DNA of 64,000 bases, taken from the human T2T-CHM13v2.0 reference genome, Homo sapiens. The notes under the pieces were generated by a model. The model was given only the letters and a program-made list of their open reading frames with translations, was not told the DNA's origin and searched no databases. How positions within the stretch are numbered: position 1 is the first letter of the stretch; each line of letters opens with the position of its first letter. A program made the translations under genes and the position numbers. Positions 17,264-54,454 of the stretch are shown here, one piece after another. The stretch lies in NCBI RefSeq assembly GCF_009914755.1, contig NC_060925.1; one strand, given 5' to 3'.

Positions 17264-17560
17264 CAGTGCTGTGCTACAGCCAGGTCATACCAGCTTTTGA
17301 CGGCCAATTGTTAAATTTTCAGGAATTCTGTGAACCAGTTGTTAAGCACAGCCATTGTTACAAATTAAATGATAAAAACTTACAGTTAAATAACTCATGT
17401 TAAAAACAAAAGTAATAAGTACTCAAAATTCATCACTTTCTGGTTATGTTACCACTTTTTACTGTTGTCTGTGCTCTTGAACTATTTACATTGTTTTATC
17501 TGTATGATAAAAATGGTATATGATGGTATGCTGCAGCTCTACTGTTATGCATCACTTTTC
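17264..17560 (+). mobile_element. MER63 (hAT-Blackjack) 5' part, target of the L1 insertion; resumes briefly at 19145-19152
   Basis: cagtgctgtgctacagcc...attgttaaattttcaggaatt...aagtactcaaaattcatcactt matches the recalled MER63 consensus, which continues (C)AACTCC after the second TSD copy. Confidence 0.75.
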
Positions 17561-17569
17561 TTTTTTTTT

Positions 17570-18158
17570 GCAAATGATATTTTATTTTATGCAATTTGTT
17601 TATTTACTCATTCATTCAATTGCTTATTTAATCATTCCTTAAAATATATAAGCTGAGAGCTGATTATATGGATGGCACCAGGCAAATACAATAGATACAG
17701 TAGTGAAAAAAATAAACATGGTGTCTTTTGTTATGGAGTCCAAAGCTCAGTGGAGCAGTGAGTGATACTAATCAAACAACTGCACAAATGCATCTATAAG
17801 TAAATTATTTTAAAAGTACAGTTAAAGGAAACAAGTAGGTGCTATTAAGTACATGATATAATATCAGGGTTCAAGAAAATTTTCAGAGCAAATGGCAAAT
17901 GAGATACATATATTCAGTCTGCCCTTCATGTCTGCAGGTTCAGCCAATCGTGGATGAAAAATATTTGGAAACATTAATAACAGTGTAACAAGTAAAAATA
18001 TAAATAAAAATACATTGTAATGACGATTTACATAGCATTTACATTGTATTAAGTATTATAAAGAGATGATTTAAAGTAGATTACTAAAATCATCTACTTC
18101 AGTAATGTTATATGCAAATATAACATATATGGTTACCTGCAAATACTGTACTATGCCA
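17570..18158 (-). other. L1 3'-transduced genomic segment (~590 bp) with a second poly(A) at 17561-17569
   Basis: Lies between the L1's own A tail and a second A tail, inside TSD ttatgcatcacttttc (17545-17560 and 19129-19144). AATAAA on the - strand at 17581-17586. Confidence 0.88.
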
Positions 18159-18162
18159 TTTT
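17915..18162 (-). mobile_element. MER2 (TcMar-Tigger) fragment inside the transduced segment
   Basis: cagtctgcccttc...aaaatatttgg...atttacatagcatttacattgtatt...tgcaaatact...gccatttt, truncated at the L1 tail. Confidence 0.8.
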
Positions 18163-19129
18163 TTTTCTTTTTTTATTTTTTATTTATTATTATTATACTT
18201 TAAGTTTTAGGGTACATGTGCACAATGTGCAGGTTAGTTACATATGTATACATGTGCCATGCTGGTGCGCTGCACCCACTAACTCGTCATCTAGCATTAG
18301 GTATATCTCCCAATGCTAACCCTCCCCCCTCCCCCCAACCCACAACAGTCCCCAGAGTGTGATGTTCCCCTTCCTGTGTCCATGTGTTCTCATTGTTCAG
18401 TTCCCACCTATGAGGGAGAATATGCGGTGTTTGGTTTTTTGTTCTTGCGATAGTTTACTGAGAATGATGATTTCCAATTTCATCCATGTCCCTACAAAGG
18501 ACATGAACTCATCATTTTTTATGGCTGCATAGTATTCCATGGTGTACATGTGCCACATTTTCTTAATCCAGTCTATCATTGTTGGACATTTGGGTTGGTT
18601 CCAAGTCTTTGCTATTGTGAATAATGCCGCAATAAACATACGTGTGTATGTGTCTTTATAGCAGCATGATTTATAGTCCTTTGGGTATATACCGAGTAAT
18701 GGGATGGCTGGGTCAAATGGTATTTCTAGTTCTAGATCCCTGAGGAATCGCCACACTGACTTCCACAATGGTTGAACTAGTTTACAGTCCCACCAACAGT
18801 GTAAAAGTGTTCCTATTTCTCCACATCCTCTCCAGCACCTGTTGTTTCCTGACTTTTTAATGATTGCCATTCTAACTGGTGTGAGATGGTATCTCATTGT
18901 GGTTTTGATTTGCATTTCTCTGATGGCCAGTGATGGTGAGCATTTTTTCATGTGTTTTTTGGCTGCATAAATGTCTTCTTTTGAGAAGTGTCTCTTCATA
19001 TCCTTCACCCACTTTTTGATGGGGTTGTTTGTTTTTTCTTGTAAATTTGTTTGAGTTCATTGTAGATTCTGGATATTAGCCCTTTGTCAGATGAGTAGGT
19101 TGCGAAAATTTTCTCCCATTTTGTAGGTT
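18159..19129 (-). mobile_element. 5'-truncated young L1 (L1PA3-like): ORF2 C-terminus plus 3' UTR and A tail
   Basis: ORF 18397-19008 encodes an uninterrupted ORF2p C-terminus ([18 protein letters not shown]...FSLIGGN). The 3' UTR has GATGACGAGTTAG (GAG, not the L1HS ACA/ACG), GAGAACACATGG and GGAACATCACAC. Confidence 0.93.
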
Positions 19130-19154
19130 TATGCATCACTTTTCAACTCCAGTC

Positions 19155-20940
19155 CATTTATTTTCTAATATTCTACTCTGATCTCTTCCCCTACCTCCTC
19201 TTTACGCTCAATAATTCATGGATTTGCCCTTTTGAGGCTATTTTCTAGATCTTGCAGGCATGCCTAATGTCTTTTTATTCTTTTTGTTGTTGTTGTTTCT
19301 CCTCTATGTATTTTCATATAGCCTGTCTTCAAGCTCACTGATTCTTCTGCTTGATCATCTACTGTTGAGAGACTGATACATTTTTAAGTTTGTCAGTTGA
19401 ATTTTTTAGCTTCAGAATTTCTGCTTAATTATTTTTTATTATTTCAGTCTTTTTGTTAACTTTATCTGATAGGATTCTGAATTTTTTCTCTGTATTGTCT
19501 TGAAGTCATTGAGCTTCCTCAAAGTAGCTATTCTGAATTCTCTTAAATGTCACATATCTCTCACTCCAGGATTGGTCCCTGGTACCTTGTTTAGTTCATT
19601 TGATGAGGTCATGTTTTCCTGGGTATTCTTGATGCTTGTGGATGTTTATTGATATCTGGGCATTGAAAAGTTAAGTATTTATTCCAATCTTCATAGTCTG
19701 AACTTATTTTTACCCGTCCTTCTTGAGAAGGCTTTCCAAAGGGAATTAAGTGTTGTGATCTAAGTCTTTAGTCACTGAAGCCATATCTGCTTTAGGGGAT
19801 GCCCCAAGCCAAATAATGCTGCAATTTTTGCAGACTCGCAGAGATATAGCCTTGGTGGGCTTGGGTAAGATCTGAGAGAATTCCTAAAATCTCTTTTTCT
19901 CTTCTCTCACTTTCCCCTGAATAAATAGTGTTTTTTTCTCCTCATGCTGGGCTTCCTGGAGTTGAGGAGCAGGGTGACACAAGCACTAGCCACCACAGCT
20001 GGGACTGGCTACTATGGCTGCAACTGCACTTGGTCACACCTGAAGCCAGCATGGTACCTGACGACTACTGCCTGGCTGCTGCTGGTGTTTATTCAAGGCC
20101 CCAGGGTCTTTCCATTCAGGGTAGCAGGTTTCCTTCTGGCCCAGGATGGATCTAGAAATGCTTTTCAGGAGCTAGGGTCTGGACTCAGGGGATTCAGGAC
20201 TCTGCTTCATGTTACTGTGGCTGAGCCGGTACTCAAGTTGCAGGACAAAGTCCTCTTTACTGTTTCCTCTCTTTTCCACAAGCAGAAAAGGAGTATCTCC
20301 CAAGCTGCCCTGCCTGGAGTTGGGGAAGGGGTGTAAGTATAGCCACTCTTACTTTTTTGTTGTTGTTTCTATTTGATCCCTTGGCTACCCCAGCTGGTGT
20401 TTCACTGGATTGTATGTACCCCAAGTCCACTGGCTTCAAGCCCAGCACAGCACCAGGACTTGCCGGAAGATTGTAATACTCGTGGCCTAGACTGCTTTTC
20501 AAATTTGTTCAGGACACCAGGGCACTTTAGTCTACCAGGGGGCTTCCCTTCTGTCTGGGGCCAGTCTGAATCCTTCCTTGTTGTGTGCCTGCTAAATTCT
20601 GCCCTGTGTTGTGTTCTGCTGTGACAGGGCAGCACTGAGTACCAGTGCAAAGTCCCACAATCCCTGCTCTCTCCCTTTCCCAAGTGCATGGATTCTTTCT
20701 CTACACAGTGCTGGGGGGATAGGATAGGTGTGGTGTAGACGATGTAAGACTGTTTTTTCTATCCTCTTCCATGCCTTCTTCCTTGATATCATGTTAAAAC
20801 CAGGTACTGTGATTGCTCACCTGATTTTTTGTTTTTATGAAGGTGTTTCTTGCGTGGATAGTTGTTCAATTTGGTGTTCTTGAGGGAGGATGATTGCTGA
20901 AGGATGATTGCTATTTGGCCATCTAGCTCTGCCTCCTCCA
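19155..20940 (-). mobile_element. L1M (L1MA-type) 5' UTR plus partial ORF1, 3' part missing
   Basis: The reverse complement at 20940 reads GGAGGAGGCAGAGCTAGATGGCCAAATAG, an L1 5' terminus. A decayed ORF1-like tract lies at 19200-19700. Confidence 0.75.
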
Positions 20941-27094: not shown

Positions 27095-28249
<1,155 letters not shown>

Positions 28250-49210: not shown

Positions 49211-49800
49211 CAATGAACTTGCAATTGAAGGTCAAAGCTAACTTTAAATTAAACTCTTAAGAATATTATTGGTGGTGTGTCTCCCAAGAAAAATACCTGT
49301 CTAAGAAAATAGGAAACATCATCCCCAAAAGACTAAATACGTAGTGTGAAGGTTGAGAAAGAGGAATATATTGCAGGGAAACTTTTGGTGAGGTTTATTT
49401 GTTGTTGTTGTTTACTTCCAAAATATGGTTTCCATTTTTCTCCCCCATAAGTTTTCTATTTGGGAAAAGAGATTTAGTGGAATTATAAACTGAAAGAATT
49501 CATGTATAACTTTTGCCTCACTTTACTTTTTATTTTCATTTTTAATCTTTCATTTTTTTCCTTCTATAACTTTCTTGTCTTTGAAAAAAAGAGTGCAGGT
49601 GCCTTATGTGTCCAAGAATGAAATAGCCTCTGAAGTACTATCTGTTTGCTTGCTAGCTTGCTGGCTTGCTGGGTCAAAGAAAAGGAAGGGCTCGTTTATA
49701 CTGTAACAGTGTTTTTATTTAGCATGCCTCTGAGGTTTTTATTGTGTTCTGGGACAGTGTTTATGACATTGGAAGTTAAAGAAAAGAATTGCAATGAGTT

Positions 49801-49986
49801 GGGGGGATGGGGGAGGGATAGCACTGGGAGATATACCTAATGCTAAATGACGAGTTAATGGGTGCAGCACACCAACATGGCACATGTATACATATGTAAC
49901 AAACCTGCACATTGTGCGCATGTACCCTGAAACTTAAAGTATAATAATAATAAAATTAAAAATAAATATATTTAAAACAAACAAAC
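49801..49986 (+). mobile_element. Very short 5'-truncated L1PA (L1PA4/5-like) 3' end
   Basis: gggggagggatagca...atgacgagttaatgggtgcagcacaccaacatgg...aaagtataataa. 19-bp TSD aaaagaattgca(a/g)tgagtt. Confidence 0.92.

Positions 49987-52230: not shown

Positions 52231-54454
<2,224 letters not shown>

What the first reader, a model, noticed from the sequence alone, without database searches (positions are those of the whole stretch)
17545..19144. L1PA3-type insertion carrying a ~590-bp 3' transduction, with a built-in pointer to its source element
Seen: the 16-mer ttatgcatcacttttc occurs at 17545-17560 and 19129-19144. Read on the - strand, the interval holds a 5'-truncated young L1, its own A-rich tail (18159-18190), about 590 bp of non-L1 DNA, AATAAA (17581-17586) and a second poly(A) 11 nt later (17561-17569). 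The reconstructed empty site, TTTTC/AA, fits the L1 endonuclease consensus, and the host MER63 resumes after the second TSD. Established: this is the signature of L1 read-through 3' transduction. Inference: the cargo (an L2 tail plus a MER2 cut at gccatttt) was copied from another locus. There, the parent L1 should sit inside a MER2 whose missing remainder lies at the L1's 5' side. Repeat-masking would show this only as five unrelated fragments.
Basis: partly seen in the sequence, partly recalled or inferred. Interest (0 to 1): 0.8.

Follow-up and report, generated by a model that had tools for sequence, protein, structure and literature searches.

The report
L1 insertion carrying copied chr5 DNA
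This is an ordinary truncated L1 retrotransposon that carried about 590 bases of chromosome 5 DNA into a RABGAP1L intron, and the parent L1 is no longer at the chromosome 5 source site.

Summary
The 16-mer occurs exactly twice in the window, at 17545-17560 and 19129-19144. On the minus strand it brackets these parts in order:
- a 5'-truncated young L1, covering ORF2p residues 1062-1275 with 203 of 214 residues identical;
- the L1's interrupted A-rich tail;
- 589-596 nt of non-L1 DNA;
- AATAAA;
- A9.

A search of the window's own genome found one other full-length copy of the non-L1 DNA, at chr5:21,709,815-21,710,403. It differs by 18 substitutions in 587 aligned bases and three indels. Homology stops exactly at the poly(A) site and at GCCATTTT.

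On chr5 the repeat runs on uninterrupted. No young L1 lies within 10 kb either side. The break point there is TTTT/AT, a plausible L1 endonuclease site.

The donor was probably a segregating L1 that was later lost (inferred).

A template-switch chimera is not excluded. The names L1PA3, MER2, L2 and MER63 and the outgroup test could not be checked here.

Known mechanism, low interest.

The parts
17545..17560 (.). Target-site duplication, copy next to the terminal poly(A). This is the 3' TSD in L1 sense.
   Evidence: It is an exact 16-mer with only two occurrences in the window. On the + strand it ends in CTTTTC, the primer end for target-primed reverse transcription.
17561..17569 (-). Terminal poly(A) of the composite RNA (A9). 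Up to 3 of these A could be templated by chr5 (GTTT|GCA).
   Evidence: Sequence and the alignment with chr5.
17570..18158 (-). Transduced cargo, copied from chr5:21,709,815-21,710,403. The maximal homology is 17567-18162.
   Evidence: There is one other full-length copy in the genome. It differs by 18 substitutions in 587 aligned bases and 3 indel events, K2P 3.14%. The homology edges are sharp and blastn extends them to 17567-18162. The L1-proximal 99 nt and the distal 331 nt each have only these two places in the genome.
17581..17586 (-). AATAAA polyadenylation signal used by the read-through transcript, 11-14 nt before the cleavage point.
   Evidence: Sequence. The same hexamer is present at the chr5 source.
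18159..18190 (-). The L1's own A-rich tail, interrupted by T and G. The last four A (18159-18162) could equally be the AAAA of the chr5 site, which would be the start of the donor's 3' TSD.
   Evidence: Sequence and the alignment with chr5.
18191..19128 (-). 5'-truncated young L1. It holds the ORF2 C-terminal part (open frame 18400-19056, stop codon 18397-18399, two stops upstream of 19056) and the 3' UTR (about 18191-18396).
   Evidence: Translation and ORF listing. ORF2p residues 1062-1275 match at E 2.7e-143. The 3' UTR is 97-99% identical to 39 other scored genomic copies.
19129..19144 (.). Target-site duplication, copy next to the truncated L1 5' end.
   Evidence: It is followed by AACTCC, which is contiguous with the TSD in related copies of the host repeat.

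Best explanation
Window 17561-19128 is one retrotransposition event: an L1 3' transduction. The steps below are marked as shown or inferred.

1. Inferred: a full-length young L1 once sat on the minus strand of chr5, inserted at the + strand site GCCATTTT/ATATTAG, between chr5:21,710,407 and 21,710,408 in this assembly.
2. Inferred: its transcript ran through the L1's own weak poly(A) signal, continued for about 590 nt into the flank, and was cleaved 11-14 nt after a genomic AATAAA.
3. Shown by the TSD and the A tracts: the L1 machinery nicked the RABGAP1L intron at CTTTTC/AA and primed on the poly(A). It copied the flank, the donor's encoded A-rich tail and about 940 nt of L1 before stopping, and left a 16-bp target-site duplication.
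4. Shown: the source sequence on chr5 is in the assembly. It is uninterrupted and has no L1.
5. Inferred: the donor was a segregating insertion that produced this offspring and was then lost by drift or selection. A precise deletion between its TSDs is less likely.

The cargo differs from its source by K2P 3.1%. With phylogenetic rates recalled from memory (about 1-1.7 x 10^-9 per site per year), this puts the event roughly 9-16 Myr ago. Counting error on 18 substitutions is wide.

The element lies antisense in an intron, and nothing suggests a function.
For: - An exact 16-bp TSD brackets the whole composite, not the L1 alone. There is no second TSD around the L1 part.
- There are two A tracts: one interrupted tract at the L1 end and one pure A9 at the far end, with AATAAA 11 nt upstream of it. 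This is the anatomy given for 3' transductions in passages of PMC4859970 and PMC5668948.
- The L1 part is ORF2p 1062-1275 plus the 3' UTR.
- The cargo has exactly one other full-length copy in 3.1 Gb, on chr5. The remaining 38 scored hits are 72-84% family hits covering only cargo bases 336-512.
- Homology begins at the poly(A) site and ends at GCCATTTT.
- About 51 nt (L002 2011-2061) are shared by the two copies, but none of the 8 other family copies examined aligns there. This ties the cargo to this chr5 copy.
- On chr5 the repeat continues across the break, as it does in 6 of 8 family copies. Two of those, on C23 and C24, gave identical alignments.
- The chr5 break is TTTT/AT in the orientation needed for a minus-strand L1. 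TTTTA occurs at 82 of 20,000 positions there.
- Both TTTT/AT and TTTC/AA appear as real insertion sites in the table of PMC4859970.
Against: - The donor L1 is not at the chr5 site. The only L1-like match within +-10 kb is a 219-nt stretch at 70% identity, about 8.4 kb away.
- No sibling offspring with the same or a shorter cargo exists in this genome, so the donor is attested by this one copy only.
- The orthologous empty site in outgroup primates was not examined.
- The terminal poly(A) is short: 6-9 untemplated A.
Confidence: 0.88

Rival explanations
1. This is a template-switch chimera, of the kind described for U6-L1 chimeric retrocopies. In this reading no L1 ever sat on chr5. The L1 reverse transcriptase primed on a polyadenylated non-L1 RNA from the chr5 minus strand and copied about 590 nt to its 5' end or a break at AAAA. 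It then jumped onto the poly(A) tail of an L1 mRNA and copied about 940 nt of it.
For: - It yields the same order of parts and the same single TSD.
- It needs no donor L1, and none is at chr5.
- The AAAA at the junction could give microhomology with an L1 poly(A) tail.
- Chimeric retrocopies made by L1 are in print (passage of PMC4859970).
Against: - The break on chr5 is a full TTTT/A endonuclease-type site in the right orientation. That has a chance of about 0.4-0.6% per position, and this model predicts only the A run.
- The internal tail carries several T and a G while the terminal tail is pure A. That fits a tail encoded in an aged genomic donor better than a fresh mRNA tail, though this is a weak argument.
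- The described chimeras have the small RNA as the 5' part and L1 as the 3' part, which is the opposite arrangement.
- 3' transductions are far commoner. The abstract of PMC13009371, seen in the listing, says about 25% of insertions carry one.
Confidence: 0.07
2. These are two independent events or a chance repeat. Either a retrocopy of chr5 RNA and a separate L1 landed side by side, or the 16-mer is a coincidence.
For: None specific. The surrounding DNA is AT-rich, and short two-copy repeats occur in it.
Against: - None of 100 shuffles gave two matches.
- The repeat sits exactly at the L1 truncation point and exactly after the terminal A run.
- Neither part has a TSD of its own.
- The reconstructed empty site is contiguous in 9 of 12 related host-repeat copies.
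Confidence: 0.02
3. This is a DNA-level copy: a segmental duplication, or capture of chr5 DNA at a break next to an existing L1.
For: The copy is unspliced genomic DNA, co-linear with its source.
Against: - The copy ends precisely 11-14 nt after AATAAA and is followed by an A run that is absent from chr5.
- The TSD and the endonuclease-type nick site point to target-primed reverse transcription.
Confidence: 0.02

Closest known systems
L1 3' transduction. Moran 1999, Goodier 2000 and Pickeral 2000 are recalled and were seen only as reference-list entries. The mechanism text was seen in passages of PMC4859970 and PMC5668948.
   Same: It has an L1 3' end with its own A tract, then unique flanking DNA, then a downstream AATAAA and a second poly(A). 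One TSD surrounds the whole unit, the nick site is of the endonuclease type, and the cargo maps to a single other locus.
   Different: The source locus holds no L1 in this assembly. The event is old, with about 3% divergence from the source, so the donor cannot be a current human polymorphism of the kind tracked in population and cancer studies.
Offspring of non-reference or polymorphic source L1s. [quoted passage not shown]
   Same: The cargo points to a site where the reference carries the empty allele.
   Different: Those cases are recent, and the source can be found in other people. Here the donor is inferred to have been lost millions of years ago, and this was not tested in other genomes.
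Chimeric retrocopies made by template switching (U6-L1 and others). Buzdin 2002 and 2003 were seen only as references. A passage of PMC4859970 was seen.
   Same: Two unrelated RNAs are fused inside one TSD with a terminal poly(A).
   Different: In those chimeras L1 is the 3' part. Here L1 is the 5' part, and the junction on the source DNA is an endonuclease-type site.
Orphan 3' transduction, listed in the table of PMC4859970.
   Same: Source-flank DNA is mobilised by L1 read-through.
   Different: Orphan events carry no L1 sequence at all. This one keeps about 940 nt of L1.

Membership tests
L1 3' transduction | L1 sequence with an intact 3' end and its own A-rich tract | tested here: met
   ORF2p residues 1062-1275 match at E 2.7e-143. 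The 3' UTR is 97-99% identical to 39 other scored genomic copies. The A-rich tract lies at 18159-18190.
L1 3' transduction | Non-L1 DNA after the L1 tail, ending in a second poly(A) that lies 10-30 nt after a poly(A) signal | tested here: met
   AATAAA lies at 17586-17581 and A9 at 17569-17561, with 11 nt between them.
L1 3' transduction | One target-site duplication around the whole composite, at an L1 endonuclease-type site | tested here: met
   The TSD is an exact 16-mer, with no shuffle of 100 reaching 2 matches. The nick site is CTTTTC/AA. TTTC/AA is listed among real insertions. The empty site is contiguous in 9 of 12 related repeat copies.
L1 3' transduction | The cargo is co-linear with one other genomic locus, and the homology ends at the poly(A) site and at the L1 junction | tested here: met
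   The other locus is chr5:21,709,815-21,710,403, covering cargo bases 1-589. The edges are sharp. The two copies differ by 18 substitutions in 587 bases.
L1 3' transduction | A donor L1 lies directly upstream of the cargo at the source locus | tested here: not met
   The repeat runs uninterrupted across the junction, and no young L1 lies within +-10 kb. Sources can be absent from a given assembly (footnote seen), so this lowers the direct proof but does not change the anatomy.
L1 3' transduction | The source junction could have received an L1, meaning an endonuclease-type site in the right orientation | tested here: met
   The site is GCCATTTT/ATATTAG on the chr5 + strand. The background frequency of TTTTA there is 0.41% per position.
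L1 3' transduction | The insertion is absent from the orthologous site of species that split before the event | not testable with these tools
   No primate genome other than the window's own assembly is held.
L1PA3 subfamily | Diagnostic bases against subfamily consensus sequences | not testable with these tools
   No Dfam or Repbase library is available. The indirect evidence is as follows. ORF2p identity to the solved L1 protein is 203 of 214. Cargo divergence of 3.1% fits the L1PA2-L1PA3 period. The 7.6 and 26.8 Myr brackets were seen in PMC4083085; the 12.5 Myr age for L1PA3 is recalled. The GAG versus ACA 3' UTR diagnostic that would exclude the Ta and pre-Ta subfamilies is also recalled.
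Template-switch chimeric retrocopy | The 3' part derives from an independent, non-L1 polyadenylated transcript of the source locus | not tested
   No annotation or expression data for the chr5 locus is available here.

The most novel reading that the evidence does not exclude
No donor L1 ever sat on chr5. Instead the unit is a reverse-order chimeric retrocopy, with L1 as the 5' part and a chr5 non-coding RNA as the 3' part, made by template switching of the L1 reverse transcriptase. That class would be routinely misread as 3' transduction whenever the 'donor' is missing.

A milder variant is that the donor was real and survives in one ape lineage through incomplete lineage sorting. That would give a dated example of source-element turnover.
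Probability: 0.07. Interest if true: 0.35.

Novelty: new member of a known kind. Interest (0 to 1): 0.18.

Why it matters
It matters little beyond annotation. Five stretches that repeat-masking would list separately are one insertion event. A 590-nt 'unique' stretch in a RABGAP1L intron is a dated paralogue of chr5:21.71 Mb. The case also shows that an old, fixed offspring can record the position of an L1 source element that has since vanished from the genome. This is expected if most active L1s are low-frequency alleles that are lost. The element is antisense and intronic, and there is no sign of function.

Tried and rejected
- Sibling offspring with a shorter cargo: the L1-proximal 99 nt have only the two places in the genome, with 2 candidates and 2 scored. 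None was found.
- Donor L1 near the source: blastn of the L1 part against chr5 +-10 kb gave one 219-nt hit at 70% identity. It was rejected as a donor.
- Spliced read-through from a distant L1: the chr5 sequence before the junction (TCTAATAT|AAAA in RNA sense) has no AG acceptor (read by eye). Rejected.
- Pfam on the ORF2 fragment matched 0 families. The PDB sequence search was used instead.
- 'L2 tail': the first 331 nt of the cargo have no third copy at this sensitivity, so the label was neither confirmed nor refuted.
- Host repeat continuity: the hit lists for the left and right flanks share no place besides the window itself. At first this looked like a refutation of 'MER63 resumes'. The alignment of 12 fetched copies showed continuity for about 15-20 nt past the TSD.
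- Literature: Szak 2003, Pickeral 2000 and Buzdin 2003 are not held. What they say on missing progenitors could not be read.
- In print: a search for RABGAP1L + transduction + LINE-1 gave 5 papers. I opened only PMC7763009, which lists an 8-kb L1 near RABGAP1L at other coordinates. The other four were judged by title and abstract only.
- In print: a search for phrases on lost progenitors returned 2 irrelevant papers.
- Supplements were not consulted.
- Earlier findings of this scan were not open.

Full report
**Observation**

The 16-mer TTATGCATCACTTTTC is present at 17545-17560 and 19129-19144 and nowhere else in the window, even with two mismatches allowed. None of 100 dinucleotide-preserving shuffles gave two matches (family D2). 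The bases just outside the two copies differ, so the repeat is exactly 16 nt.

Read on the minus strand, the interval between the copies holds the following:
- L1 sequence runs from 19128 down to about 18191.
- An A-rich tract interrupted by T and G lies at 18190-18159.
- About 590 nt follow that are not L1.
- AATAAA lies at 17586-17581.
- Eleven bases later comes a pure A9, at 17569-17561, abutting the first copy of the 16-mer.

**The L1 part**

- Frame 1 of the minus strand has two stops near the truncation point and then an open stretch of 219 codons, 18400-19056, ending in a stop.
- That stretch matches human LINE-1 ORF2 protein residues 1062-1275, the C-terminal end (8sxt_A, E 2.7e-143). 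I count 203 of 214 identical residues in the printed alignment. Pfam gave no family for it.
- The 230 nt after the stop, 18191-18420, have 39 other scored copies in the genome at 97-99% identity. There were 868 first-look candidates, of which 40 were scored.
- So this is a young primate L1, truncated within ORF2.
- The label L1PA3 cannot be tested here because no repeat consensus library is available.

**The cargo and its source**

- A search of the window's own assembly with 17570-18158 gave 40 scored matches out of 377 candidates. These were the window itself, one full-length match at C5:21,709,815-21,710,403 (bases 1-589, reported as 96%), and 38 family-level hits of 72-84% identity covering only cargo bases 336-512.
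- A global alignment of the two full copies has 569 matches, 11 transitions, 7 transversions and 4 gap columns in 3 events, giving K2P 3.14%.
- Homology starts at (TTT)GCA, exactly where the A9 begins in the window. It ends at GCCATTTT, exactly where the L1 tail begins. blastn puts the maximal homology at 17567-18162.
- The L1-proximal 99 nt and the distal 331 nt of the cargo each have only these two places in 3.1 Gb. So there is no sibling with a shorter cargo, and the distal part behaves as unique DNA.
- A stretch of about 51 nt (L002 2011-2061) is shared by the two copies, but none of the 8 other family copies examined aligns there. This ties the window copy to this particular chr5 copy.

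**State of the source locus**

- On chr5 the sequence runs straight on: GCCATTTT ATATTAGAAACTTGAACATCCATGG....
- Six of 8 other family copies align across this point without a break. Two of the six, on C23 and C24, gave identical alignments and may not be independent.
- So chr5 carries the ancestral, uninterrupted state and the window carries the cut copy.
- No young L1 lies at the junction. The only L1-like match within 10 kb either side is 219 nt at 70% identity, about 8.4 kb away.
- The break is TTTT/AT on the chr5 + strand, the orientation required for a minus-strand L1. TTTTA occurs at 82 of 20,000 positions in that region and at 4 of 629 in the source segment.
- In RNA sense the chr5 poly(A) site reads AATAAA, then 11-14 nt, then GCAAA, followed by a T- and GT-rich stretch (read by eye).

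**The target site**

- The + strand was nicked at CTTTTC/AACTCC.
- TTTC/AA and TTTT/AT both appear as documented insertion sites in the table of PMC4859970 (passages).
- The flanks belong to two different repeat families. The left flank has 168 candidates, and their hits end at about 17532-17536. The right flank has 2646 candidates, and their hits start at about 19167-19181.
- I fetched 12 copies of the left family that reached the end of the query and aligned them with an empty-site model. Nine of the 12 show a contiguous CTTTCCAACTC-like stretch across the junction.
- The host repeat therefore continues through the TSD and for about 15-20 nt beyond. After that the other repeat takes over.

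**Mechanism**

The anatomy is the one given for L1 3' transduction in print. Transcription bypasses the weak L1 poly(A) signal and ends at a downstream one. The chimeric RNA is then retrotransposed. The insertion carries two A tracts and, as the first bases of the cargo, the 3' TSD of the source locus (passages of PMC4859970, and PMC5668948).

- Shown here: a single TSD, two A tracts, the signal, the endonuclease-type target, a unique co-linear source, and sharp homology edges.
- Inferred: a full-length L1 once sat at chr5:21,710,407/8 and was later lost.
- Loss is the expected fate of most new insertions, and sources absent from a reference are recorded for recent events (table footnote of PMC9311842).
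- What the early genome surveys (Goodier 2000, Pickeral 2000, Szak 2003) say about missing progenitors I could not read. They are not held.

**Age**

- K2P 3.14% between the copies means about 1.6% per lineage.
- With recalled phylogenetic rates of about 1-1.7 x 10^-9 per site per year, this is roughly 9-16 Myr.
- The Poisson error on 18 substitutions widens that by about 0.6- to 1.6-fold.
- This falls between the 7.6 and 26.8 Myr brackets quoted for L1PA2 to L1PA6/7 in PMC4083085 (passages). It is compatible with, but does not prove, the L1PA3 label.

**Rivals**

- A template-switch chimera would give the same layout without a donor L1. Three things count against it. The source break is a full endonuclease-type site rather than just an A run. 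The described chimeras have L1 as the 3' part. The internal tail is interrupted while the terminal tail is pure, although that last argument is weak. I give this rival about 7%.
- Two independent insertions, chance, or a DNA-level copy are each contradicted by the single TSD, the untemplated A run and the exact poly(A)-site boundary.

**Comparison and novelty**

This is a member of a well-known kind. I found no mention of this particular insertion. A search for RABGAP1L + transduction + LINE-1 gave 5 papers. The one I opened, PMC7763009, lists a different 8-kb L1 near the gene. A search for phrases on lost progenitors gave 2 irrelevant papers. The only mild point of interest is that the fixed offspring preserves the address of a vanished source element.

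**Verdict**

- Observation: confirmed.
- Interest: low.

Noticed in passing
window 19167-19360: The right flank, from about 38-53 nt after the second TSD copy, belongs to a very abundant repeat family. It had 2646 first-look candidates, and the scored hits are 78-85% identical. This repeat cuts off the host repeat in which the L1 landed. By eye it looks like an older L1 piece, but that was not tested.
   Followed up: partly
window 49795-49966: A 172-nt stretch is 92% identical to bases 14-184 of the L1 query (window 18172-18342, the tail and 3' UTR), in the opposite orientation. It is probably another young L1 3' end.
   Followed up: no
window 53501-54235 and 27339-27920: These are older L1 ORF2-like fragments, 74% and 71% identical to the L1 part studied here.
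   Followed up: no
L002 2011-2061 (chr5) = window about 18082-18131: The chr5 copy of the cargo repeat carries about 51 nt to which none of the 8 other family copies examined aligns. It includes a short hairpin-like stretch and what looks like a local duplication of GCAAATA...CTGCAAATAC. It predates the transduction, because both copies share it.
   Followed up: partly
window 17533-17547: Compared with 3 of the 12 related host-repeat copies (L016, L018, L019), the window has about 11-14 extra bases just before the TSD.
   Followed up: no
outside the window (RABGAP1L): A table in PMC7763009 lists an 8-kb L1 near RABGAP1L among the L1s most expressed in bladder cancer, at chr1:174,376,771-174,384,818 in that paper's assembly. 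I take it to be a different element from this 1.6-kb insertion. This rests on its size only; the coordinates were not converted.
   Followed up: no
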